Of a stretch of 64,000 nt of DNA, positions 44,707-56,289 are shown in pieces. Numbering within the stretch: the first letter of the stretch is position 1; the number at the start of each line of letters is the position of its first letter. The position numbers were made by a program, and so were the translations under genes. The notes beneath the pieces are model-generated. The model was not told the DNA's origin, made no database searches, and saw only the letters and a list, made by a program, of their open reading frames with translations. The stretch is from Candidatus Berkelbacteria bacterium (lineage in GTDB: Bacteria > Patescibacteriota > UBA1384 > XYA2-FULL-43-10 > 1-14-0-10-43-13). The stretch is taken from NCBI GenBank assembly GCA_037143235.1, contig JBAWZC010000003.1, positions 25,192-89,191 of the forward strand, written 5' to 3'.

Positions 44707-44750
44707 ATATTTATCGCCACTGGGCACTAATTTTGTTGTATGGAGGGAAG

Positions 44751-46847
44751 ATGAATATACGAAATTTTATAGCCAAGATCCTCGTGATCTCTCTTTTTGT
44801 GACCATCTTGCCATATCAGCAGGCGATGGCAAAAAATGACATGCCAGCCACACCTACTCCAACACTTGGTGAGGGACAATATGATGAGGCAGGAAGCATA
44901 TGGGAGTGGCAACACGAAGATACTGATGGCGGAAGATGGGTTGTGATACACACTATTGCCCAAAAAGTTAACGGACAAATTGTTTACCACAAAATCAAAT
45001 ATGGACAAGATGCTGCAAACCTACAGACAACTTTTTCAATGGTAGACTATAAAAATGAAACTCGAAGTCTCGGCGGTCAATATTGGTTCAAGATGGAAAC
45101 ATATGACGACGACGGTGTTAGTGGATACAATATTTATATCTATATACATTCCAGAGGAACACAGAACCCACCAATACCATCGCCCTCGCAAACGCAAATA
45201 ACGCCGCCCGGTGAGTACAACCGAGACTTTGCTGATCCATCTTACCTCGGAACAATCGTGACATCAGCCAAAAAGGCTTACGGCCTTTACAAATGGGTCT
45301 ATACAGTACCAAAAGGCAAAATGCAAGACGCTGGGTATTGTATTGACAAGGGGCAGACAGCAATCGTGAGAGATGTCACTGGCGTGAGGCAGATAGAGAA
45401 TCTGGGCATGATAATCTTTGGCGCAACCACGGGGTACCGATTGGAAAATACATATACGAATGCCGCCGACGAAACAGCTATGTGTATGCAGCCAGTCATG
45501 AAATTTCAGTATGGCGACAAGACGAAAGCTGTGGAAAATTATCTAACTGCCACTAATGATTATCTAAACTCCAGAGATATCATAAACAAACCGAATGTAA
45601 CTGAAGAATTTATTACACCGGAGGAAATATCTGAAGCAGGCTGTAAATCTCCTCTTGGAAATGAGGCTGATGCAAAAAATACTTTCATGAAAAATTACGA
45701 TGAATATATGACCGTGCTCTGGGACAATGCCGTTGACAATAATGGCAACAGCATCGTTGTACCCGGAAATGTAAAAGACAAATACAAGGAAAACACTATC
45801 AATGCAATGAATGGCGATATGCCGGATATTACGAAGATTAATTCATTTAAACTACCCGGAGTTGATTGGGGTGGTATGTACCAACAATATTATGGAGGTT
45901 ACGGAATAAAAAACTATCCCGGTTCAGGGTATGGACCTGCCCCCGATGCGCAGTATCCCAACATGTTTTATGATAAAAACATGCTAGATCGTATGGATGC
46001 CCCTCTTAAACAGATTGAAAGTAGATGGAGCAAAAAACCCACACCAGAAAACGCACTTACGCTCCCTGACAAAAAGGTGATTGATATGGAAAAAACCCAA
46101 ATCAAGGCCGCCGAGGCGGTAACGAAGAAAAATGGTGGCTCCGTCCCAAATGGCGGGTTAACACTACCACAGGCCTCATGGATTCTAACTGGAGTAGCTG
46201 CAACCGGTCTTATCCTTGCCAAAACAGGAGTTTTTGCGGCGGCCTGGGGCGGAGTTAAGACCGCCGCTGTTAACTATGGAATTGCGATGTATTTAGATTT
46301 TGGTGTCGCCATAGAAAGTGCTGGAGCAACAATAGGAGTAGCTCTTGGTGCAACAGTAATTTTAATTGCTCTCGCGGTCGCTTTAACTGTTCTGGCAATA
46401 ACTTATGCCAACGTAGACAAATATTACAACCAGAATCTGGTAAAGGCACAGACAGCATTGCTTTATTCGACTTTCTTGGCAAGTAATGCGGCTGATTTCC
46501 ACGCTTGCATGCTTCAAAATTCAGTCAAGGCAAACAAAATGGACGCAGCAAAAGCTATTAAGCTTGGCTTAACCGACGAGAATGTTAAAAACGAGATGAT
46601 GAATATCGCTTATGGCAAGAATAATTATGCCAAATCGGTAGTGACAAATATAAAAAATGCTGGAAACTGCCCAGATATTAATCTTATGAATATGGGGCAG
46701 ACATTGCAAAGTGCAATTTGCAATGTCTTTTATATGCTCAACTCCCTGATTAATGTATTGGCCAACGGGGTTCGAGACTTTATGGTCAATAACATCTTGT
46801 CATTTAATACCCTAGGACCAGTACCAAAAATTATAAATACTGCATGA
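44751..46847 (+). CDS. Secreted protein with C-terminal membrane-spanning segments. First gene of the T4SS-like operon.
   Basis: Signal peptide (MNIRNFIAKILVISLFVTILPYQQAMA). There is a ~450 aa soluble region, then 2-3 hydrophobic helices ('WILTGVAATGLILAKTGVFAAAW', 'IGVALGATVILIALAVALTVLAITY'). The start is chosen at the ATG after the GGAGGG RBS rather than the track's upstream ATG. Confidence 0.45.
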   Translation: MNIRNFIAKILVISLFVTILPYQQAMAKNDMPATPTPTLGEGQYDEAGSIWEWQHEDTDGGRWVVIHTIAQKVNGQIVYHKIKYGQDAANLQTTFSMVDYKNETRSLGGQYWFKMETYDDDGVSGYNIYIYIHSRGTQNPPIPSPSQTQITPPGEYNRDFADPSYLGTIVTSAKKAYGLYKWVYTVPKGKMQDAGYCIDKGQTAIVRDVTGVRQIENLGMIIFGATTGYRLENTYTNAADETAMCMQPVMKFQYGDKTKAVENYLTATNDYLNSRDIINKPNVTEEFITPEEISEAGCKSPLGNEADAKNTFMKNYDEYMTVLWDNAVDNNGNSIVVPGNVKDKYKENTINAMNGDMPDITKINSFKLPGVDWGGMYQQYYGGYGIKNYPGSGYGPAPDAQYPNMFYDKNMLDRMDAPLKQIESRWSKKPTPENALTLPDKKVIDMEKTQIKAAEAVTKKNGGSVPNGGLTLPQASWILTGVAATGLILAKTGVFAAAWGGVKTAAVNYGIAMYLDFGVAIESAGATIGVALGATVILIALAVALTVLAITYANVDKYYNQNLVKAQTALLYSTFLASNAADFHACMLQNSVKANKMDAAKAIKLGLTDENVKNEMMNIAYGKNNYAKSVVTNIKNAGNCPDINLMNMGQTLQSAICNVFYMLNSLINVLANGVRDFMVNNILSFNTLGPVPKIINTA

Positions 46848-49135
46848 ACAGCGAATTTCTAAAAAAATATTCACTCCTTTTTTTCTCCTTACTCGCCTTC
46901 TCGGTGCTAGTAAGTTTGATATTTTATAATTACGCTTCTGCTGGAGCAATTGCTCTGACGCTTGAATCAAATGCCGGAGTAATGAAGAGCTGGAAACTCA
47001 TCATAGGTATTGCCAACAGTTTCGTCATCTTGATTTTAATCGTAGTTGCTTTTGCTGAAATACTACACATCCAAATAGACACATATGCCGTTAAAAAGAT
47101 TTTACCATCGATCATTATGGCTGTTGTTGCAGCTAACTTCAGTTTTCTCTTGTGTCGAATCGCCGTCGATTTAAGCACGGTAGCTATTGTAAGGTTTTCT
47201 GTGATAAATGATAGTTTGGGAAATAACCTCACCGATTCTACTTGGATACCTTGGGACATGGACAACGTTGGGCAGAGTCTATTTAACGCTATCATCACAC
47301 CAGTATTTACTTTGGTATTGCTGATCGCATATGCAGTTCTAGCCTTTTTGTTCTTCATCAGGAGCTATGTAATATACTTTTTGGTTATCGTCTCTCCAAT
47401 AGCCATCATGGCCATGGTGTTACCAGTCACCAAAAAATTCTTCGATCAGTGGCTCGGACAATTTCTTCGCTGGGCATTCCTACCAGTTCCATCGATGGCG
47501 CTCTTGGGACTGATGGGAATATTCCTAACACAAATACCTAACGGTCTTTTAAGAATAGCCTACTCTTCTGTCTGTCTTTATGGTGCGATCATATTGCCTT
47601 TTCAGCTCGGCGGGCCGATCATGCAAAAATGGAGTACATTGCCTGGCCATGCCTTTAAGCAACTTGGTGGAGTTGGGGCGAGGATATCAAATTATGGGCA
47701 AAGAAGAAGAAAAATGTACGGAGACAATGACAGACTGGGCAACGCAATGAACAGTATTGGTGGTTTTATCAACGCCCCATACATGGTCAAGACACTGCAA
47801 GACAAACACAAGGCATATGTGACTGATCTCGGTAAGGCCGAAAGCAAGACTTGGGTAAAAGGCGCTCTTGGCGGAATGAGTGGGCAACTTGAGTCCATGG
47901 GTCTTCGTCATGCTGATGATCTGGCCAATAGCACTGCCATGACGGATGCCCAACAGATTATGGCTGTAGAAAATACTATTCGTGGTGCAATCAATGCTAC
48001 CCCTGCGCTTCGAACCAGGCAACAACAGAGGATGGTCGAGGGCATCGACACAAAACTTGGAGGTGCTGGAAATTATGATAACCCACTCGTTAGTGATGCT
48101 CGAAAGAACGATGCCCTTCGTAGGTACTTAGCTTCTGAATCCCAAGGCAGTCTAGCTACAAAGCATCTTGGGTTAGCAGGACTTACCAATGCCAGTGACA
48201 TAGTGTTGGCACAGGGATGGGCTAAAAATGCAATTGTAGATATACGTGGGAACAGGACCAGGGCCGACTTCGAAAGAGTATACAGAGGTGGGCCACCGCC
48301 GACGCCACCGGGGGGGCCACCGCCTCCCGGACACTTGCCAACGGGAGCAGTTGGCCAGACAACAGCCAACAGTGCTGCTGAGGGAGAAGGAGGTACTGGC
48401 AATATGCGCCCAGTGCCGGTTGTGATTATGGAAAATCGTGACCAGACGATAAGAGATGGAATGTCGCATATTGCCAAATACGACGCCATAACCAAAGAAA
48501 TATTGGCAGGAGTACAGAACGGTACGGTTCCCCCGACAAACCTGACGGGATTAATGGACGGAACGATGTCAGACGACAAGAAAGCCAGAGCTGTCGAGTC
48601 AATGGTACCAAGTCTTCAAGGCCAAGATCCAGTAAAGATTGCTGAAGCGTTGGCACTTCTAAATAGATCTTCGTCTGCAAGAAGTGGCAACGGAGATTAT
48701 AATACTGTGATGAACGAGATCAAAAATGCATTAAACAATCATGCTAATAATTCTGCTTTGGGCAGCACTGTACTCGACCACATGGGCAACAATAGCAACA
48801 ACACCATCGGTAGTTATATAGGCAACGAGCAAGCGATGAAAGAACTGGCCGGATCTGTCGCTGATATGCATATGGCAATCAACAACCTTGGAGAAAGACC
48901 AGCGATCGATCACACTGAACTTGCAAAAGTATTGAAAGAATCAATGATTGGACTGGTTGGCAAAAATGGTGGTGGCAATGGTGCCAATACCTCTATGTCG
49001 TCACTTCTGGGTGGTACTGACGAACAAGCGAAAAGACGATTTGCAGAGACAATGGGTAAGGCTGTGGCAACAAGCATGGCCAAGCAAGGAGCGAATATGA
49101 GAACACCGGCGCCGGAACCGCAGAACGGGGTTTAA
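46844..49135 (+). CDS. VirB6/TrbL-like polytopic membrane protein with a large C-terminal extracytoplasmic domain (ConG/TcpH-type architecture)
   Basis: ATGA overlap with the upstream gene. ~7 TM helices in the first 270 aa. A 'GGPPPTPPGGPPPPG' proline linker is followed by a ~480 aa soluble domain. This domain organisation matches the VirB6 homologues of Gram-positive conjugation systems. The call rests on architecture rather than strong sequence similarity. Confidence 0.4.
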   Translation: MNSEFLKKYSLLFFSLLAFSVLVSLIFYNYASAGAIALTLESNAGVMKSWKLIIGIANSFVILILIVVAFAEILHIQIDTYAVKKILPSIIMAVVAANFSFLLCRIAVDLSTVAIVRFSVINDSLGNNLTDSTWIPWDMDNVGQSLFNAIITPVFTLVLLIAYAVLAFLFFIRSYVIYFLVIVSPIAIMAMVLPVTKKFFDQWLGQFLRWAFLPVPSMALLGLMGIFLTQIPNGLLRIAYSSVCLYGAIILPFQLGGPIMQKWSTLPGHAFKQLGGVGARISNYGQRRRKMYGDNDRLGNAMNSIGGFINAPYMVKTLQDKHKAYVTDLGKAESKTWVKGALGGMSGQLESMGLRHADDLANSTAMTDAQQIMAVENTIRGAINATPALRTRQQQRMVEGIDTKLGGAGNYDNPLVSDARKNDALRRYLASESQGSLATKHLGLAGLTNASDIVLAQGWAKNAIVDIRGNRTRADFERVYRGGPPPTPPGGPPPPGHLPTGAVGQTTANSAAEGEGGTGNMRPVPVVIMENRDQTIRDGMSHIAKYDAITKEILAGVQNGTVPPTNLTGLMDGTMSDDKKARAVESMVPSLQGQDPVKIAEALALLNRSSSARSGNGDYNTVMNEIKNALNNHANNSALGSTVLDHMGNNSNNTIGSYIGNEQAMKELAGSVADMHMAINNLGERPAIDHTELAKVLKESMIGLVGKNGGGNGANTSMSSLLGGTDEQAKRRFAETMGKAVATSMAKQGANMRTPAPEPQNGV

Positions 49136-49336: not shown

Positions 49337-51139
49337 ATGAGCGAAAACAAACCACAACCTGATGAAACACCACTCGGCCCAGTCCCAGTCAAATCTCTTT
49401 TAGATAGATTAAGAGAAGAGACAGAAGGAGGAAGTCAGGAAACAGAAGACAGGAGTCAGGAGACAGTCGAGACTATTCCACCAGTCCCCCCTGCTGTTGT
49501 CGAGGAAAAGAATCAATCCCGAGAACGCAAAAGAGCATTTTGCGACAAACAATCGTTTGTCGACTTTGCGAAATATTGTATCGATGGCGGTACCGAAGAC
49601 TTGATCATTCTGGCCGAAAAAGATTTGGCTGAAAAAAGAAAAAATCAGACAGAGGCAGATAACACAGAAGAAAATGAGGCAATGAAAGAGGGCGTGGAGG
49701 CGATCAACAGATTTATTTTTTCCCCAGAGTGGAAGACCGTCTGGCAAAAATTTGACGCCCTAAAGGCGAACCCCGAATATGCAAATATTGACCAAAGAAA
49801 AAAAGATATTCAGCAAGCGATTCTGATGCCAGTGATCAACGGGCACTTGACCGCACAGGACGCCGCAAATTTGGTCTCTGGTGTTGATATCTTGCCTGAA
49901 AATAATACTGGCGACTCGACCCAAAGCCATGGTTACGATGGCATTCTTTTCTATTCCCCTAGCAGCCGCAAGATATTGATCGCCGAACGAGCGCTCAAAG
50001 ACAAATATACCGAAAATCGAAACGGCACAGAAGTTGAGATAAAGTTGAACTTTGGTCATATGATCTCGCACGAGATGGGTCATGGTCTGACGGCTGAGGC
50101 GGGAGCCACACCACGAACAAGCGCCGAACTGGCGAAGCAAATAACTGATAAAGAGCCGAATTTTACTTCCAAGATGCTTTCCGAAGCTCGAAAGATGATC
50201 GACAATGCGGCGATATACAAAGACGCACAGCCGATGCATGTCAAAACTGTATTGGAAGGACTTTCAAACATCGGCGAGCAATATGACAAGATGACTGATC
50301 CTGAGAAACAAAAAGTTGGCACACTGGAGAATTATACGAACATACGCAAAATTATGGCGGCAGACGAGATTATCACCGACTACACCGCCGTCTTTTTGCA
50401 AACCGATGGCAGTTTTGCCGACTTCGCTGAGAAATGTATCTTGGTGGCCGACAAAGATGGTCTGTCGAGGTATTTGGCTGGGCCGATCGCAGGAGAAAAT
50501 ATTGACGCAACAGCTTTTGCCCTTGGCAAGTTGCGACAGATCAATGGTGAGCTAACCGCAGCTGAGAAGAAAGAACAAGCGACAGACGATGAAAACTTTG
50601 CTCGCGAAAACCCAGAAAATGCTGGATATCTGCTTCGCGAAACCAGAGAAGATGTTTTGAAAAAATATCCAGAGATCAGCCGATTGCTTGAATCCTATCA
50701 AGCTTTTTATGGAGATATAGTGGACATGAAGGGCAAAACTAGGGGCAAGATCACGATGGGCCAAGGGACCGAAGACGACGATATGATCTCCGAAGGCTAC
50801 GGCGGCGGTTTTGATGGTGGCAGAAGTATGGGCGGTAGTGGCAATGATGGCATCGCCATGGCGAACGATCTCCTCGGTATCGCACATCACCTTCTGTCTG
50901 GCGTTGGCGTGGTAACTGGTAGCGAGATGCAAATCAGGGGCGGACAGACCGCGGGTGCAGGAGCGCCAATTATTCCAAGCGAACAAAGATCAATTCCGAG
51001 TGTCGAAGGAACTATGACGGCAGAGCAAATTGAGGCAGCCAAAAAGGAGAAAGAAGAAAAAGAACGATTGGCGAAAGAAAAAGAAGAGACAGAAAAAGCC
51101 GCAGCTACGAGTCCGGAAAGTAACAAGCCGGCAGGATAG
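49337..51139 (+). CDS. Acidic soluble protein with an HExxH zincin-like motif and a Lys/Glu-rich C-terminal tail
   Basis: 'NFGHMISHEMGHGL' (HExxH) sits mid-protein. No signal peptide or TM helix. The C-terminus has 'EKEEKERLAKEKEETEK'. No family assignment is possible by eye. Confidence 0.35.
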   Translation: MSENKPQPDETPLGPVPVKSLLDRLREETEGGSQETEDRSQETVETIPPVPPAVVEEKNQSRERKRAFCDKQSFVDFAKYCIDGGTEDLIILAEKDLAEKRKNQTEADNTEENEAMKEGVEAINRFIFSPEWKTVWQKFDALKANPEYANIDQRKKDIQQAILMPVINGHLTAQDAANLVSGVDILPENNTGDSTQSHGYDGILFYSPSSRKILIAERALKDKYTENRNGTEVEIKLNFGHMISHEMGHGLTAEAGATPRTSAELAKQITDKEPNFTSKMLSEARKMIDNAAIYKDAQPMHVKTVLEGLSNIGEQYDKMTDPEKQKVGTLENYTNIRKIMAADEIITDYTAVFLQTDGSFADFAEKCILVADKDGLSRYLAGPIAGENIDATAFALGKLRQINGELTAAEKKEQATDDENFARENPENAGYLLRETREDVLKKYPEISRLLESYQAFYGDIVDMKGKTRGKITMGQGTEDDDMISEGYGGGFDGGRSMGGSGNDGIAMANDLLGIAHHLLSGVGVVTGSEMQIRGGQTAGAGAPIIPSEQRSIPSVEGTMTAEQIEAAKKEKEEKERLAKEKEETEKAAATSPESNKPAG

Positions 51140-51149
51140 AAAGATGAAC

Positions 51150-51470
51150 AGTTTTTAAGTGTTTAAGCCAGACAGTGAAAACAGGTCACTTTGCTAAGGC
51201 TGTTCTCCACGAGGTCGAACCATAACTAGTACCACGGCATTCTTATTGTTATTCTTCGAGCGAGCCTTGCGAGTCGAGAAGTAATGATAGATTGCCGCGC
51301 CTGCCTGCCGGTAGGTAGGTCGAAGACTTCTCGCAATGACAAACAGTTCTGTCCTTCCTGCGCAGGCAGGAATCTAGATATAATAGCAACTTCAGAATAT
51401 GCTCTCCTAGGCGCTCACGCGACGACGGGATTCCTGCCTACGCAGGAATGACACAGGGATAGGTGGAAAA
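51150..51470. repeat. Composite intergenic repeat cluster (modules D, C inverted, B inverted, A)
   Basis: 51195-51260 is the reverse complement of module C. 51283-51345 is the reverse complement of 36785-36840. 51350-51460 holds 'cctgcgcaggcaggaatc ... gggattcctgcctacgcaggaatgaca' inverted repeats. Confidence 0.6.
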
Positions 51471-51689: not shown

Positions 51690-52088
51690 TTGAGATACAA
51701 AGTTCCACAAAATATCGACATGCAAGACAGGGTCATCGGTCCCCTTACCATGACTCAATTTGTGTATGTCATCATCGGCACTGGTTTGTCATACAGTGTT
51801 TGGACAGCTCTGCCCTCGCCGATCGGTCTTGGGATTGCTATTCCTTTGCTTTTACTCACCTTTTGCATCGGCTTTATCAAAATAAACGAGCGACCTTTTT
51901 GGGTATTTCTAGCTTCAATCTTGGGCTATATGAGCACCCCACGACAGAGAGTTTGGCAACACGATGCCAACGGCTCAATGAGAGTGGAGATCTATACTCC
52001 GATAAAATCACAAGTTACCGCAGCTCCAACCAAAAATATCAGTCACGAAGAAATCAGTCGCATCGCCCAGATGAATGACAGACGATAA
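51690..52088 (+). CDS. PrgI/TcpE-like small membrane protein (VirB3 analogue of Gram-positive T4SS)
   Basis: 132 aa with two TM helices ('FVYVIIGTGLSYSVW', 'IGLGIAIPLLLLTFCIGFI') after 'QDRVIGPLTMTQ'. It lies immediately upstream of the VirB4 gene, as in the prgI-prgJ and tcpE-tcpF pairs. The alternative-frame ORF at 51677-52078 is rejected. Confidence 0.55.
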   Translation: MRYKVPQNIDMQDRVIGPLTMTQFVYVIIGTGLSYSVWTALPSPIGLGIAIPLLLLTFCIGFIKINERPFWVFLASILGYMSTPRQRVWQHDANGSMRVEIYTPIKSQVTAAPTKNISHEEISRIAQMNDRR

Positions 52089-52217: not shown

Positions 52218-53162
52218 ATGAACAATCCTTCAACCCAACAACAGATTGAGATCGCCGGTATCAAAAACGGTGTCGTGATTATGAAAGACTTGAGCTACCG
52301 CATCGTTTTGGAGGTGGCTTCGATCAATTTCAACTTGAAAAGCGAGATGGAACAAAACTCGATCGTTTTTCAGTATCAAGGTTTCTTGAACGCTCTCCAT
52401 TTCCCGATCGAGATTGTCGTTCGCTCCAAAAGACTCGATCTCACTCCATATCTAAATCATTTGAAAGATATTGGCGAAAAACAACAGAACGAACTTATTC
52501 GCTCTCAGACTCTTGATTATGTGAATTTTGTCGGCCAGCTGATCGATATCGCCAATATTATGAAAAAAAGTTTCTATATTGTCGTTCCCTACTCGCCGAT
52601 GAATTTACCGAACGCTAATCTTTTTGACAAAATCTTTGGTACGGGCAAAAATCCACAGACAAACTTGCGCATCACTGACAAGGACTTCAAGGCTAATGTG
52701 ACCAAATTGACCGAGAGAGCAAACATCGTTGCCTCGGGCATCGGCTCGATCGGATTGCGCTGCACTCAGTTAAATACCGAGGCATTGATCGAACTTTTTT
52801 ACGGTGTTTACAATCCAGCCGAGTCCGGCAGGGAGCGACTAACTGATTTTTCAACTGTTTCTTCGCCGGTGATTAGCAACGGTTCAGCAACACCAGATAT
52901 GTCAAATCGAGCGGCGATGACGGAGATCGGCATGATCGACAATGTGGCTCAGGTCAAGGAGCAACAAAAGCTTGATGCTAGCGCCAAACAAGCGAAGGAA
53001 CAAAAAACTGAAGAAAAAGTCCAAGGATACGAACAGTTCAAGACTCCAGAGTTTTTGGATCTAGAAACACAAACTCAGGCAGGAGAGATCACGCCACAAG
53101 TCCCAGATAAGACATCAGCGACTCCTCCAGCAACAACAGATAACAATAATCAGGCGGTATAA
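52218..53162 (+). CDS. Conjugation-ATPase N-terminal-domain-like protein (resembles the extra N-terminal domain of ConE/TcpF-type VirB4s). Separated from the VirB4 core by a single in-frame TAA.
   Basis: 'IEIAGIKNGVVIMKDLSYRIVLEVASINFNLKSEMEQNSIVFQYQGFLNALHFPIEIVVRSK' resembles the N-terminal region of Gram-positive VirB4 homologues, but this rests on recalled similarity. The C-terminus is a Q/E/K/T-rich linker. It is in the same frame as 53163-55022. Confidence 0.4.
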   Translation: MNNPSTQQQIEIAGIKNGVVIMKDLSYRIVLEVASINFNLKSEMEQNSIVFQYQGFLNALHFPIEIVVRSKRLDLTPYLNHLKDIGEKQQNELIRSQTLDYVNFVGQLIDIANIMKKSFYIVVPYSPMNLPNANLFDKIFGTGKNPQTNLRITDKDFKANVTKLTERANIVASGIGSIGLRCTQLNTEALIELFYGVYNPAESGRERLTDFSTVSSPVISNGSATPDMSNRAAMTEIGMIDNVAQVKEQQKLDASAKQAKEQKTEEKVQGYEQFKTPEFLDLETQTQAGEITPQVPDKTSATPPATTDNNNQAV

Positions 53163-55022
53163 ATGGCAGACACAAATAACAACCAAAATCAGCCAGTTCC
53201 AACTCCAGCACCAGTCCCATCACCACGAGAGATGGCACAGGCAAATATTGCCCAGCGTGAAGCTGGTCGACCAGTGGTTGCAATTCCGACTGCACAAACA
53301 GACCAGTACAAAAAAGGTGTGACATCAGTCCCTGACATTATCGCCCCCGCCTCTTTTGTAGTCGAACAAAACTATATTCAGCTTGGCAATAAATTTGTCA
53401 AAACACTTTTTGTTTTCACTTATCCGCGATATTTGGAAACGAACTGGCTCTCCCCGATCATCAACTATGATCTTTCGATGGACATCGGGATGTATATTCA
53501 TCCGCTGGAGACCAAAGATGTCATGACCGACCTGAAAAACCAGCTCGGCAAGCTCGAGTCTACTTCGAGGATTGAACAGGAAAAAGGCACGCCGAGAGAT
53601 CCTGAGATTGAGACTGCTTTGGGTGATATTGAAGCGCTCCGAGATGTCTTGCAGCGCGGCGAGGTTCGCCTATTTCAATTTGGTCTGTACTTTACCATCT
53701 ACGCCAACTCGATCGAGGAATTGAAAACGATTACTGATCAGCTAGAGTCTACTCTCGGGGGCATCCTTGTTTACACCAAAGAAGCACTTTTCCAGATGGA
53801 ACAGGGTTTTACCGCGACTTTACCTCTCTTTTCAGACAAACTTGGCATCTTGCGCAACCTTGATACTGGTTCACTCTCTTCGACATTCCCCTTCGTCTCC
53901 TCTGATCTGACGCAGGAAGATGGCGTGCTGTACGGTATCAACAAGCACAACAATTCGTTGATCATTTTCGACCGCTTTAGCCTAGAAAATGCGAACTCTA
54001 TCGTCTTTGCAAAGTCTGGCTCGGGTAAAAGTTATTTTGTGAAACTTGAGGCTCTGCGCTACCTGATGATGGGTATCGATGTCATTGTGATCGACCCAGA
54101 AAATGAGTACAAACCGCTCTGTGAAGCTTTCAACGGCAGCTATCTCGAGATTTCGCTCAACTCTGACAAACGAATTAACCCTTTTGACCTGCCGATCAAT
54201 ACGGACGAGTCTGGTGAAGATGTCTTGCGTTCAAATATTGCCTCACTTCACGGCCTGATCAATGTGATGGCTGGCGGGTTGACTCCAGAGGAAGATGCTT
54301 TGGTCGACAAGGCTCTTTACGAGACCTACGCACTCAAGGATATTACGACAGACCCAGAAAGTCAGCGAAACGAAGTGCCACTGATGCAAGATTTTTACAA
54401 TATATTATCTGGTATGCAAGGTTCAGATTCACTTCGCGCTAGACTATCAAAATTTGTCGAGGGAACTTTTGCCAATCTGTACAATCAACGCACCAATTTT
54501 GATCTCAAGCCTGGTTTTGTTGTCTTTTCGGTTCGTGATCTCGATGAACAACTAAGGCCAATCGCCATCTATACTATTCTCGACTACATCTGGACCAAGA
54601 TCAGGATGAATCTCCGCAAAAGACTGATGATTGTTGATGAGGCTTGGTGGATGATGCAATACGATGACTCAGCGAAGTTTTTGCAGGGTTTGGCCAAAAG
54701 AGCACGAAAATATTATCTTGGTCTCACAATCATCTCACAGGATATTGAGGACTTTCTGTCGAGTCGTTACGGCAAGGCCGTGGTAGCCAACTCGTCGATG
54801 CAAATATTGATGAAACAGTCGACCGCTTCGATCAAGGCCGTGACTGATGTTTTTAATCTAACCGAAGGCGAACAATACATCCTACTCGAGTCAGAAGTTG
54901 GCGAAGGACTCTTTTTTGCTGGGCAAAACCATGTCGCCTTCAAGGCGATCGCCTCCTTTGTCGAAGACCAAATCATTAACACTGATCCGCGTCGTCTAAG
55001 CCAAAACAATGATGAACTTTAA
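53163..55022 (+). CDS. VirB4/TrbE/ConE-family T4SS ATPase
   Basis: The N-terminal region '...QLGNKFVKTLFVFTYPRYLETNWLSPIINYDLSMDIGMYIHP' is a VirB4 signature. Walker A is 'FAKSGSGKS'. Walker B is 'RLMIVDEAWWMM'. Confidence 0.8.
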   Translation: MADTNNNQNQPVPTPAPVPSPREMAQANIAQREAGRPVVAIPTAQTDQYKKGVTSVPDIIAPASFVVEQNYIQLGNKFVKTLFVFTYPRYLETNWLSPIINYDLSMDIGMYIHPLETKDVMTDLKNQLGKLESTSRIEQEKGTPRDPEIETALGDIEALRDVLQRGEVRLFQFGLYFTIYANSIEELKTITDQLESTLGGILVYTKEALFQMEQGFTATLPLFSDKLGILRNLDTGSLSSTFPFVSSDLTQEDGVLYGINKHNNSLIIFDRFSLENANSIVFAKSGSGKSYFVKLEALRYLMMGIDVIVIDPENEYKPLCEAFNGSYLEISLNSDKRINPFDLPINTDESGEDVLRSNIASLHGLINVMAGGLTPEEDALVDKALYETYALKDITTDPESQRNEVPLMQDFYNILSGMQGSDSLRARLSKFVEGTFANLYNQRTNFDLKPGFVVFSVRDLDEQLRPIAIYTILDYIWTKIRMNLRKRLMIVDEAWWMMQYDDSAKFLQGLAKRARKYYLGLTIISQDIEDFLSSRYGKAVVANSSMQILMKQSTASIKAVTDVFNLTEGEQYILLESEVGEGLFFAGQNHVAFKAIASFVEDQIINTDPRRLSQNNDEL

Positions 55023-56289
55023 GAGGAAATTAAAGGGAAATATTGCTTGGACTCTCGCTGCTGCTGTCGGACTGCTGATGATCTCAACCTTCGCTCTGGC
55101 GATTTCTTTTTCACCACTCGCCCTCTTTAAGGGTGGAGATCCAGTGAAAGGAACAAGTGGTTACGCTGGCGGCGTTGGAGGAGGATGCTCTGTGCCTGAC
55201 AAAATACTTTCGGACACCATTACTTACAATACGGCTGATAAAATAATCGCAAGCGTCGGCGGAAAATACACGGATATTCTAAGTGCCCCAGACAGAAAAG
55301 AAAAACTTAATATTGTAGTCACTGAAGCGCTAAATCATAATGTTAATCCAGCAATTCTAACTGCAATGTGGGTTGCTGAGGCTAGTGCGGCAGCCGAACA
55401 CGACGACGCAGCCTTTGGTTATGGGGTATACGGCGGAGTAAACCGATATCCAGGATTCAACAAACAAACGGCAGGTGGGGCCTCACTGATCAGAAAAGCT
55501 GTAGATAATGTGGCACCATATAATGAACCGTCTGGAGAAAATGCTTGGACCAGACTGTTCTACAACTATGTCGCTGCTGCAATGAAGGATTCTTATGATG
55601 AAAAAGGATATGTCTCAGATGCAGACGAAGCAAGATATGTGATTATAAAAAGATTTTACCCATCAGAAGCAACTTGTACAAAATCACCAATAATGATGCC
55701 GGGAAGCGTTGACGGCACAAAAGCAGAGGTTATCAAGAGAATCAATGCGACCGCTGGAGGGTCAGGAACTTGCAGTAGCGTAAACCTTGAGGCGAGAGCT
55801 GGTAGCTACAGCAGTGATCTAGATGAAATTACTGTCAGGATATGGAAGTACAATGGAGGGAGTGCTCCAATTGATAGTTCTATGGTGTTAACTGTCAATC
55901 CAAACTGTACCGAGGTTATCAAAGCGATTTTTACTGACATTTACAACGACCCAAGCCACCCTCAGATTGACCCTAGTCAGACAACCTGTGCCGCCAGCAG
56001 AGACAGACGCTCAAATCACGTTATCGGCGCTGCTTGCGATGTCAATGCTGACCAAAACTGGTGCGCGCCAAATTGCTACAACAAGACCAATAACAAAATT
56101 GGAGATTATTGGAAGCCAGGCGACGAAAGTCCCAATAAAGAATTTAAAGCTTGGAGCGAGGGATATGATCCTAGATCCATCGGCATAAACAGCCCTATCG
56201 CCAATGCTTTTAGAAAACATAACTGGGGCAGAGGTCTTTACAGGGACAACTTTGACGACATGATGCATTTTAGTTTTGATGGGCACTAA
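55009..56289 (+). CDS. Membrane-anchored cell-wall hydrolase (M15/LAS-type peptidase motif at the C-terminus; N-terminal domain possibly lysozyme-like)
   Basis: N-terminal TM/signal anchor. 'SNHVIGAACDV' fits the S-x-H-x-x-G-x-A-x-D zinc site of VanY/M15 peptidases. Its position next to VirB4 parallels CwlT, TcpG and PrgK. Confidence 0.45.
   Translation: MMNFKRKLKGNIAWTLAAAVGLLMISTFALAISFSPLALFKGGDPVKGTSGYAGGVGGGCSVPDKILSDTITYNTADKIIASVGGKYTDILSAPDRKEKLNIVVTEALNHNVNPAILTAMWVAEASAAAEHDDAAFGYGVYGGVNRYPGFNKQTAGGASLIRKAVDNVAPYNEPSGENAWTRLFYNYVAAAMKDSYDEKGYVSDADEARYVIIKRFYPSEATCTKSPIMMPGSVDGTKAEVIKRINATAGGSGTCSSVNLEARAGSYSSDLDEITVRIWKYNGGSAPIDSSMVLTVNPNCTEVIKAIFTDIYNDPSHPQIDPSQTTCAASRDRRSNHVIGAACDVNADQNWCAPNCYNKTNNKIGDYWKPGDESPNKEFKAWSEGYDPRSIGINSPIANAFRKHNWGRGLYRDNFDDMMHFSFDGH

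What the first reader, a model, noticed from the sequence alone, without database searches (positions are those of the whole stretch)
52218..55022. VirB4/ConE-like ATPase encoded as two ORFs in the same frame, separated by a single TAA followed immediately by ATG
52218-53162 (314 aa) and 53163-55022 (619 aa) are in the same reading frame: both start coordinates are divisible by 3, and the junction reads GCG GTA TAA ATG GCA. The upstream ORF resembles the accessory N-terminal domain found fused to VirB4 in ConE/TcpF-type proteins. The downstream ORF is a complete VirB4 core. The stop lies in a Q/N/T/P-rich linker. The possibilities are a natural domain split with TAAATG translational coupling, a recent nonsense mutation, a sequencing error, or programmed stop-codon readthrough yielding a 934-aa fusion at low frequency.
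Basis: seen in the sequence. Interest (0 to 1): 0.55.

Follow-up and report, generated by a model that had tools for sequence, protein, structure and literature searches.

The report
Split VirB4 secretion ATPase gene pair
These are two ordinary, separately translated genes of a type IV secretion system in an ultra-small (Patescibacteria) bacterium: a TrsD-like protein that matches the front part of the VirB4 motor, and the rest of the motor. That they sit in the same reading frame is a coincidence.

Summary
ORF1 (52218-53162, 314 aa) and ORF2 (53163-55022, 619 aa) share a frame and are separated only by TAA, with ATG immediately after.

It is a natural, old gene split. It is not an assembly error, a recent nonsense mutation or programmed readthrough.
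- ORF2 is a VirB4 ATPase that lacks the first ~180 positions of full-length VirB4 profiles.
- ORF1 is a TrsD-like ("TraC-like", PF26593) protein homologous to that missing N-terminal portion.
- The 120 best ORF1 homologues listed and the 120 best ORF2 homologues listed are all standalone proteins.
- In 54 related loci the two genes are never fused. Their frame offsets are 12/19/23 and the gaps run from about -68 to +477 nt.
- A second assembly carries the identical junction.
- TAA is the commonest stop codon in the window.
- No RNA structure follows the stop.

The trsD-virB4 pair of Patescibacteria is already published (Quinonero-Coronel et al. 2025: 2,272 TrsD homologues, 1,664 next to virB4).

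One modest extra finding: a sister clade of about 66 protein clusters carries the two parts fused (~890 aa). This links the two proteins functionally. It also means the window's junction is one point mutation away from that fused form.

Interest is low.

The parts
46844..49135 (+). VirB6/TrbL-like polytopic membrane protein (763 aa) of the same T4SS cluster
   Evidence: Pfam TrbL PF04610, E=1.1e-06, 29 bits against a cut-off of 25.9
51690..52088 (+). PrgI family (VirB3-like) small membrane protein, 132 aa, immediately upstream of ORF1
   Evidence: Pfam PrgI PF12666, E=1.3e-10, 42.1 bits against a cut-off of 27. The same gene call and family appear in the ENA copy of the contig.
52218..53162 (+). 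ORF1: TrsD-like / PF26593 'TraC-like' protein (314 aa), the detached N-terminal portion of VirB4. Residues 1-~215 form the folded domain. Residues ~216-314 are mostly a disordered Q/T/P/K/E-rich tail, with one predicted helix at 243-271.
   Evidence: NCBIfam hits to the N-termini of VirB4_plasma and CD1110 and to TrsD. Precomputed PF26593. AlphaFold2 model with pLDDT 75. The top 14 Foldseek hits are TrwK/VirB4. 38% identity to residues 13-228 of the natural fusion P0311.
53152..53157 (+). Shine-Dalgarno-like AGGCGG inside the 3' end of ORF1, 5 nt before the ORF2 ATG
   Evidence: Read directly from the sequence. Comparable purine-rich motifs precede the abutting junctions of L035 (GAAGGAG), L039 (GGAG) and L041 (AAGGA). 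Its function is inferred.
53160..53165 (+). Junction TAA|ATG: the ORF1 stop directly abuts the ORF2 start, in the same frame
   Evidence: An identical junction is present in the independent Logan assembly L098.
53163..55022 (+). ORF2: VirB4-type T4SS ATPase lacking the N-terminal portion (619 aa). Residues 1-~45 are low-complexity. Walker A is AKSGSGKS at aa 283-290 (nt 54009-54032). Walker B is LMIVDEAW at aa 488-495 (nt 54624-54647).
   Evidence: NCBIfam conju_CD1110 E=7.1e-109, 365.1 bits against a cut-off of 325, profile positions 178-735 of 752. Pfam P-loop_TraG E=4.5e-28. Motif positions. 56% identity to residues 319-889 of the fused P0311.
55009..56289 (+). 426-aa protein with a C-terminal Peptidase_M15_4 domain. 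It overlaps the virB4 3' end by 14 nt and is a likely cell-wall hydrolase of the cluster (VirB1-like role).
   Evidence: Pfam PF13539, E=3.9e-07, 31 bits against a cut-off of 25. The role is inferred from PMC12102498, which notes essential peptidase and lysozyme genes downstream of virB4 in Ca. S. epibionticum.

Best explanation
The two ORFs are the trsD-like and virB4 genes of the chromosomal type IV secretion system of a Candidatus Berkelbacteria (Patescibacteria/CPR) bacterium. In this lineage the VirB4 motor is encoded in two pieces.
- ORF1 supplies the N-terminal ~200-residue domain, followed by a disordered tail.
- ORF2 supplies the remainder of the N-terminal region plus the P-loop ATPase domain.

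Both are translated as separate polypeptides from one operon: prgI/virB3-like, trsD-like, virB4, then a peptidase. The ribosome terminates at TAA and starts again at the abutting ATG, helped by an SD-like AGGCGG 5 nt upstream. That is ordinary translational coupling and would favour similar amounts of the two proteins. The two proteins are inferred to assemble non-covalently, with PrgI/VirB3 at the membrane, into the equivalent of a full-length VirB4.

The shared frame is a coincidence of a zero-length spacer. It leaves the locus one stop-loss mutation away from the fused form that a sister clade has fixed.

Shown here: the gene identities, the homology, conservation of the split, non-conservation of the frame, and the existence of fused relatives. 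Inferred: the translational coupling and the physical complex.
For: - Identity of the proteins.
- Colinear tiling on full-length profiles: ORF1 residues 14-123 map to VirB4_plasma positions 112-233 and ORF2 residues 49-604 to positions 287-892. ORF1 residues 7-64 map to CD1110 positions 2-60 and ORF2 residues 47-594 to positions 178-735.
- The split is conserved. The best 120 of 796 ORF1 homologues are all 224-383 aa. The best 120 ORF2 homologues are all 582-698 aa. Of the 150 best representatives at 50% identity, 149 are standalone.
- In 54 loci the pair is never fused, the frame offsets are 12/19/23, and the gaps run from about -68 to +477 nt.
- The ORF2 N-terminus MADTNNNQNQ matches MPDQNQNQ in L001 and L002, where it follows a 59 or 135 nt spacer.
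- A second assembly has the identical junction.
- Stop codon use among the 45 long ORFs is TAA 20, TAG 17, TGA 8.
- Functional link: about 66 fused clusters of 850-910 aa carry both domains. They form one clade in an NJ tree, beside the split clade that holds the window.
- Literature: TrsD is remotely homologous to the VirB4 N-terminus. 2,272 homologues were found in Patescibacteria, 1,664 of them next to virB4, and the gene is essential in Ca. S. epibionticum (PMC12102498).
Against: - No direct evidence that ORF1 and ORF2 bind each other.
- The AlphaFold2 model of a natural fusion has low confidence (pLDDT 64, pTM 0.43). Its domains align to TrwK in order but with ~32 A rmsd, so domain docking is untested.
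- ORF1's score against the NCBIfam TrsD model (18.6 bits) is far below the curated cut-off of 200.
- My Pfam-A scan returned no family for ORF1. The PF26593 assignment comes only from precomputed annotations.
- About 16 loci with at least 3.4 kb of downstream sequence have a TrsD-like gene but no VirB4 core nearby. TrsD-like proteins therefore do not always travel with virB4.
- The SD-like motif is imperfect.
Confidence: 0.9

Rival explanations
1. Programmed stop-codon readthrough: a fraction of ribosomes read through TAA and make a 934-aa fused VirB4 as a regulated second isoform.
For: The two ORFs share a frame with a single stop between them. The linker is disordered. A fused architecture is clearly functional in a sister clade. 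A readthrough product would therefore probably be tolerated.
Against: - The in-frame single-stop arrangement is not conserved. Only 12 of 54 loci are in frame, and only 6 of those have a single stop.
- The closest relatives, L001, L017-19 and L021, are out of frame with 25-115 nt spacers.
- TAA is the most used stop codon in the window. From general knowledge, it is also the least leaky stop in bacteria.
- There is no stable RNA structure around or after the stop (z=+0.5).
- ORF2 has its own conserved start.
Confidence: 0.02
2. Recent nonsense mutation: a formerly fused ~930-aa virB4 was broken by a point mutation creating TAA, leaving a pseudogene or a newly split gene.
For: Fused relatives exist in the same candidate phylum. 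The junction is exactly in frame.
Against: - All 120 nearest ORF2 homologues listed (70-80% identity) and all 120 nearest ORF1 homologues listed are standalone.
- In the NJ tree the window's VirB4 (P0121) sits deep inside the split clade, not in or next to the fused clade.
- The ATG and the N-terminal residues of ORF2 are shared with relatives whose genes are separated by spacers in other frames.
- Outgroups from other CPR classes and from Clostridia are split too.
Confidence: 0.03
3. Sequencing or assembly error that created a false stop codon.
For: The source is a metagenome-assembled genome. Read pile-ups could not be inspected.
Against: - The exact 314-aa protein and the identical TAAATG junction occur in a separately assembled Logan contig of run SRR7053653, as well as in the 99.6-kb ENA/NCBI contig.
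- The split architecture is what every close relative has.
Confidence: 0.02
4. ORF1 is an independent accessory protein, such as an adaptor or regulator, that descends from the VirB4 N-terminus but no longer completes the VirB4 core structurally.
For: - TrsD has no assigned function (PMC12102498).
- About 16 loci have TrsD-like genes with no VirB4 core within 3.4 kb. The paper reports the same for Gracilibacteria.
- ORF1 carries a ~100-residue tail with a conserved D241-N242 motif and a helix at 243-271 that has no counterpart in VirB4.
Against: - ORF2 lacks the N-terminal ~180 profile positions that single-chain VirB4 proteins have, and ORF1 matches those positions.
- A whole clade has the two parts fused in the same order.
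- The genes are adjacent and abutting in the window.
Confidence: 0.08

Closest known systems
TrsD-VirB4 gene pair of the Patescibacteria T4SS (Quinonero-Coronel et al. 2025, Microb Genom, PMC12102498). Essential T4SS of Ca. Southlakia epibionticum (Wang et al. 2023, as cited there).
   Same: The organism group is the same: ORF1 is an exact match to a Ca. Berkelbacteria MAG protein. The gene order is the same: PrgI/VirB3-like, TrsD-like, VirB4, then cell-wall hydrolases, with VirB6 nearby. TrsD is a standalone protein remotely homologous to the VirB4 N-terminus and sits next to virB4.
   Different: Nothing essential differs. The particular zero-spacer, in-frame TAA|ATG junction is one of many junction geometries. 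The paper's main text does not mention the fused TrsD-VirB4 clade found here.
TrsD/TraD plus TrsE/TraE of staphylococcal and enterococcal conjugative plasmids (pGO1/pSK41 subclass of MPF-FATA; NCBIfam NF041427)
   Same: A small protein encoded just upstream of the VirB4 ATPase, with similarity to the VirB4 N-terminus. 45 of 47 ORF1-family members hit the TrsD model at E<=0.01, with a best E-value of 1.4e-8. Clostridia loci L013-L016 show the same split.
   Different: ORF1 scores 18.6 bits, far below the family cut-off of 200. It is longer (314 aa against ~200 aa), with a disordered tail. The system is chromosomal and, according to PMC12102498, usually lacks a relaxase, so it is probably not conjugative.
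Single-chain VirB4 ATPases: R388 TrwK (PDB 7O43, 8RTD), T. pseudethanolicus VirB4 (4AG5), the CD1110 family, and Mycoplasma ICE VirB4 (NF045975)
   Same: ORF1 and ORF2 tile colinearly on these profiles. The ORF1 model's top 14 structural hits are TrwK. The C-terminal domain of a fused relative matches 4AG5 at TM 0.78, 3.1 A rmsd and 33% identity.
   Different: Here the protein is encoded as two polypeptides. About 145 residues of low-complexity sequence flank the break. Structural similarity of the N-terminal domain to TrwK is modest (TM 0.34 over the whole query, ~8 A rmsd, 10-12% identity).
Fused TrsD-VirB4 proteins of a sister Patescibacteria clade (P0311 and P0388-P0456; 850-910 aa)
   Same: The same two modules occur in the same order, joined by a P/A-rich linker, with the same PrgI-upstream context.
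   Different: They are a single ORF. ORF2 is 56% identical to the core and ORF1 is 38% identical to the N-terminal domain. They form a separate clade in the NJ tree.

Membership tests
VirB4-type T4SS ATPase (CD1110 / MPF-FATA type): ORF2 | P-loop NTPase domain with Walker A and Walker B motifs | tested here: met
   Pfam P-loop_TraG E=4.5e-28, plus AAA_10 and DUF87. AKSGSGKS at aa 283-290 and LMIVDEAW at aa 488-495.
VirB4-type T4SS ATPase (CD1110 / MPF-FATA type): ORF2 | Whole-protein score above the curated family cut-off | tested here: met
   NF045971 conju_CD1110: 365.1 bits against a cut-off of 325. The match covers only profile positions 178-735 of 752.
VirB4-type T4SS ATPase (CD1110 / MPF-FATA type): ORF2 | N-terminal portion present in the same polypeptide | tested here: not met
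   ORF2 has no match to profile positions 1-177 of CD1110 or 1-286 of VirB4_plasma. ORF1 matches those regions instead.
VirB4-type T4SS ATPase (CD1110 / MPF-FATA type): ORF2 | Encoded among other T4SS components | tested here: met
   PrgI/VirB3-like at 51690-52088. VirB6/TrbL-like at 46844-49135. M15 peptidase downstream.
VirB4-type T4SS ATPase (CD1110 / MPF-FATA type): ORF2 | ATP hydrolysis and hexameric assembly at the membrane | not testable with these tools
   This needs biochemistry or cryo-EM.
TrsD/TraD family (NF041427) / PF26593 TraC-like: ORF1 | Sequence match to the family model at the curated threshold | tested here: not met
   TrsD: 18.6 bits, E=0.0013, against a cut-off of 200. 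45 of 47 homologues match at E<=0.01, none shown to be near the cut-off. ORF1 is a remote relative, not a strict member of the NCBIfam subfamily.
TrsD/TraD family (NF041427) / PF26593 TraC-like: ORF1 | PF26593 (TraC-like) domain | tested here: inconclusive
   Precomputed annotations list PF26593 for the exact protein and for nearly all homologues. My own scans of the Pfam-A copy returned no family, even at E<=10.
TrsD/TraD family (NF041427) / PF26593 TraC-like: ORF1 | Homology to the N-terminal portion of VirB4 | tested here: met
   All 47 family members hit the N-terminal region of VirB4_plasma (best E=7e-13), 43 hit CD1110 and 14 hit VirB4_CagE. The top 14 Foldseek hits are TrwK/VirB4 at probability 0.82-1.00, and the next hits fall below 0.25. 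ORF1 aligns to residues 13-228 of the natural fusion P0311 at E=7e-54.
TrsD/TraD family (NF041427) / PF26593 TraC-like: ORF1 | Standalone small protein encoded directly upstream of virB4 | tested here: met
   True in the window and in 54 of 54 related loci that carry both genes.
Programmed stop-codon readthrough | In-frame single stop conserved among relatives | tested here: not met
   12 of 54 loci are in frame, and 6 of 54 have a single stop. The closest relatives are out of frame.
Programmed stop-codon readthrough | Leaky stop context or a stimulatory downstream RNA structure | tested here: not met
   The stop is TAA followed by A. The fold of 53100-53220 has MFE -9.1 kcal/mol and z=+0.5 against shuffles. 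No Rfam family matches anywhere in the window.
Programmed stop-codon readthrough | Junction-spanning protein product | not testable with these tools
   This needs proteomics or ribosome profiling.
Pseudogene or recent gene disruption | Close relatives carry the intact, uninterrupted gene | tested here: not met
   The nearest 120 homologues listed for each ORF are all standalone. Fused forms are a separate clade at ~56% identity.

The most novel reading that the evidence does not exclude
The junction is a snapshot of gene fusion in progress. The spacer between trsD and virB4 has collapsed to zero, in frame, so background TAA readthrough already yields trace amounts of a full-length VirB4. That product would resemble the protein a sister Berkelbacteria-like clade has fixed by re-fusing the genes. 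Selection might act on this minor tethered isoform.
Probability: 0.03. Interest if true: 0.35.

Novelty: already known. Interest (0 to 1): 0.12.

Why it matters
It matters little beyond correct annotation. The two genes are labelled 'hypothetical protein' and 'DUF87 domain-containing protein' in the public record. They should be read as the trsD-like and virB4 genes of the Patescibacteria type IV secretion system. Published work reports that this system is essential for epibiotic growth in the one CPR species tested (PMC12102498).

The small added value is the fused sister clade of about 66 protein clusters. It gives Rosetta-stone evidence that TrsD-like proteins work as part of the VirB4 motor. 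It also shows that fusion and split states both occur among related Patescibacteria (some members of each named Ca. Berkelbacteria). That could guide experiments on what TrsD, currently of unknown function, does.

Tried and rejected
- A profile search of PDB sequences with the ORF1 family found nothing relevant. The best hits were eS8 (E=0.09) and fibrinogen, both driven by the low-complexity tail.
- Guglielmini et al. 2014 (PMC4027160) does not name TrsD in its main text. The statement about TrsD homology therefore rests on PMC12102498.
- The 2025 FEMS review (PMC12857230) mentions neither TrsD nor split VirB4.
- I tried to model the hypothetical readthrough product.
  - MAFFT misaligned the ORF1 homologues onto the ORF2 part (A2).
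- Modelling the natural fusion P0311 instead gave a low-confidence model (pLDDT 64, pTM 0.43). Its inter-domain geometry cannot be trusted: rmsd to TrwK is ~32 A, although the alignment is colinear over ~930 columns.
- TAA reassignment was considered and rejected. All three stop codons end long ORFs, and TAA is the commonest.
- An rRNA operon was considered to explain the ORF-poor 59-64 kb region and rejected. There are no Rfam hits. The region is one giant ORF that runs off the window.
- The promoter and terminator scan was uninformative. Counts were near the shuffle expectation, and no terminator lies between the two genes.
Full report
**1. Observation**

The sequence is as described. ORF1 runs from 52218 to 53162 (ATG to TAA, 314 aa). 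ORF2 runs from 53163 to 55022 (ATG to TAA, 619 aa). The junction reads GCG GTA TAA ATG GCA, and a single-frame translation of 52218-55022 contains exactly one stop. The stop lies in low-complexity Q/N/T/P-rich sequence. The AlphaFold2 model of ORF1 is well folded over residues 1-~210 and mostly disordered after that, apart from a helix at 243-271.

**2. What the proteins are**

ORF2 is a VirB4-type type IV secretion ATPase.
- NCBIfam conju_CD1110 matches at E=7e-109 with 365 bits, above the curated cut-off of 325. The match covers profile positions 178-735 of 752.
- VirB4_plasma matches over positions 287-892 of 894.
- Pfam P-loop_TraG matches at E=4.5e-28.
- Walker A (AKSGSGKS) and Walker B (LMIVDEAW) are both present.
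- ORF2 therefore lacks the first ~180-290 positions of single-chain VirB4 profiles.

ORF1 matches exactly those missing regions.
- Residues 14-123 map to VirB4_plasma positions 112-233 (E=8e-8).
- Residues 7-64 map to CD1110 positions 2-60.
- There is a weak hit to the TrsD/TraD family.
- Across 47 ORF1 homologues, 47 hit VirB4_plasma, 45 hit TrsD, 43 hit CD1110 and 14 hit VirB4_CagE.
- Precomputed annotations call the domain PF26593 'TraC-like'. My own Pfam scans gave no hit.
- The 14 best Foldseek hits of the ORF1 model are all R388 TrwK/VirB4 (probability 0.82-1.00, ~225 aligned columns). Nothing credible follows them. The similarity itself is modest: TM 0.34 and ~8 A rmsd.

**3. Context**

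The exact ORF1 protein is a 'hypothetical protein' of a Candidatus Berkelbacteria MAG. The surrounding genes form a T4SS cluster:
- a VirB6/TrbL-like protein at 46844-49135;
- a PrgI/VirB3-like protein at 51690-52088;
- ORF1 and ORF2;
- a protein with an M15 peptidase domain that overlaps the virB4 end by 14 nt;
- further envelope proteins downstream.

**4. Is the split real and old?**

It is both.
- The best 120 of 796 ORF1 homologues are all standalone proteins of 224-383 aa.
- The best 120 ORF2 homologues, at 70-80% identity, are all 582-698 aa.
- Of the 150 best representatives at 50% identity, from 3,697 hits, 149 are standalone.

I fetched 96 related loci. In the 54 that hold both genes completely enough to analyse, the genes are never fused.
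- The frame offset of virB4 relative to the upstream gene is 0, 1 or 2 in 12, 19 and 23 loci.
- The distance from the stop to the first possible start has a median of 8 nt and ranges from about -68 to +477.
- The junction types include ATGA overlaps, short spacers and three more stop|ATG abutments (L035, L039, L041).
- The nearest relatives have spacers of 25-135 nt, mostly in another frame (L001, L002, L017-19, L021).
- Their VirB4 proteins begin MPDQNQNQ... or MADLDNNTQ..., matching the window's MADTNNNQNQ. The ORF2 start codon is therefore ancestral.

Other checks agree.
- A separately assembled Logan contig (SRR7053653) has the identical junction.
- TAA is the commonest stop among the 45 long ORFs of the window, at 20 TAA, 17 TAG and 8 TGA, so the genetic code is standard.
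- The RNA around the stop has no unusual structure (z=+0.5).
- The window has no Rfam match.

Together these exclude an assembly error and a recent nonsense mutation as likely explanations. They also leave no support for programmed readthrough.

**5. Fused relatives**

One of the 150 representatives, P0311 (898 aa), is a natural fusion.
- Residues 13-228 are the TrsD-like domain, 38% identical to ORF1 (E=7e-54).
- A P/A-rich linker follows.
- Residues 319-889 are the VirB4 core, 56% identical to ORF2.
- It occurs on five contigs from at least three sequencing runs, downstream of a PrgI gene.

Searching with P0311 revealed about 66 clusters of fused proteins, 850-910 aa long. Some are named Ca. 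Berkelbacteria or Saccharimonadales.

I built a rough NJ tree of 121 VirB4 cores, without support values.
- The fused proteins form one clade.
- That clade sits beside the split clade, and the window's protein lies deep inside the split clade.
- The more distant CPR and Clostridia outgroups are split.
- The fused form therefore looks like a secondary re-fusion. This is an inference.

Two apparently standalone proteins sit inside the fused clade: P0453 and P0457. They are annotation artefacts. In CP066695.1 and MEZX01000002.1 the frame upstream of the called start stays open for about 900-990 nt and encodes the whole TrsD-like domain.

The fused clade gives Rosetta-stone evidence that the two proteins act together. 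It also shows that the window's junction is one stop-loss mutation away from a viable fused architecture.

**6. Mechanism**

Shown here: the two genes are adjacent and co-directional, abut each other, and are each conserved.

Inferred:
- They are co-transcribed with prgI.
- ORF2 is translated by termination-reinitiation at TAA|ATG, aided by the SD-like AGGCGG at 53152-57. Similar purine-rich motifs precede the other abutting junctions.
- The ORF1 domain joins the ORF2 protein non-covalently to complete the VirB4 N-terminal region. From published R388 structures, that region contacts VirB3 at the membrane.

I could not test the docking.
- The model of the natural fusion is of low confidence (pLDDT 64, pTM 0.43).
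- Its C-terminal domain matches T. pseudethanolicus VirB4 well (4AG5: TM 0.78, 3.1 A rmsd, 33% identity).
- The whole chain aligns colinearly with TrwK over ~930 columns, but at ~32 A rmsd.

One caveat remains. About 16 loci encode a TrsD-like protein with no VirB4 core within 3.4 kb, as the literature also reports for Gracilibacteria.

**7. Comparison with what is known**

Quinonero-Coronel et al. 2025 (PMC12102498) already describe this arrangement.
- It is the most abundant T4SS component detected in Patescibacteria, with 2,272 homologues.
- 1,664 of these are associated with virB4.
- It is essential in Ca. S. epibionticum.

TrsD was first defined in the pGO1 subclass of the MPF-FATA systems. 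Clostridia loci retrieved here show the same split. ORF1 is only a remote relative of the NCBIfam TrsD subfamily, scoring far below its cut-off, so I call it 'TrsD-like' rather than a strict member. The paper's main text does not mention TrsD-VirB4 fusions.

**8. Verdict**

This is the known trsD-virB4 split gene pair with a zero-length, coincidentally in-frame junction. The novelty class is 'already known' and the interest is low. The only mildly new point is the fused sister clade.

Noticed in passing
window 59110-64000 (+): A single open reading frame of more than 1,630 codons runs off the 3' end of the window, so the ORF listing does not list it. It has a hydrophobic N-terminal segment and no Pfam hit. 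It looks like a giant secreted or surface protein directly downstream of the T4SS cluster. The fused-clade loci also have proteins of 1,241-1,501 aa flanking the cluster.
   Followed up: partly
L099-L101, P0311, P0388-P0456: A clade of about 66 protein clusters in Patescibacteria (some named Ca. Berkelbacteria or Saccharimonadales) carries the TrsD-like domain and the VirB4 core fused in one ~890-aa protein. The main text of the 2025 survey of Patescibacteria T4SS does not mention it.
   Followed up: yes
L102 1514-2500 (CP066695.1) and L104 1613-2500 (MEZX01000002.1): Public annotations call virB4 from an internal start (582 and 578 aa). This leaves ~900-990 nt of open, in-frame, TrsD-like coding sequence unannotated. 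These genes are really fused.
   Followed up: yes
L004, L005, L037, L040, L043, L047, L054, L055, L061, L064, L067, L076, L078, L090: TrsD-like genes with no VirB4 core within the ~3.4-4 kb available downstream. L004 and L005 are labelled Peribacteria. This agrees with the literature remark that TrsD is not virB4-linked in Gracilibacteria. What these unlinked copies do is unexplained.
   Followed up: no
window 52938-53030 (ORF1 residues ~241-271): Inside the otherwise disordered ORF1 tail, D241-N242 are conserved in at least 90% of 47 homologues, and a helix is predicted at 243-271 with pLDDT ~90. This could be an interaction motif. Shorter TrsD-like proteins (~215-250 aa) lack the tail.
   Followed up: no
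window 51284-51451 (+): A 55-aa ORF between the 600-aa unknown protein and prgI gives a weak Zn-ribbon hit (NOB1 Zn-ribbon, E=1.2e-4, 22.5 bits, below the cut-off of 24.9). It is unclear whether this is a real gene.
   Followed up: no
window 44733-46847 and 49337-51139 (+): Two large proteins (704 and 600 aa) inside the T4SS cluster have no Pfam or NCBIfam hit. They are candidates for lineage-specific T4SS components.
   Followed up: no
L009 (CAZSER010000033.1): A contig binned as 'uncultured Gammaproteobacteria' carries a CPR-type trsD-virB4 pair, 40% and 52% identical to the window's proteins. This could be mis-binning or a horizontal transfer.
   Followed up: no
ORF1, Pfam: The Pfam-A copy used by search_protein_families returns nothing for ORF1 or its homologues, even at E<=10. 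The precomputed tables list PF26593 (TraC-like) for almost all of them. The two Pfam versions evidently differ.
   Followed up: partly
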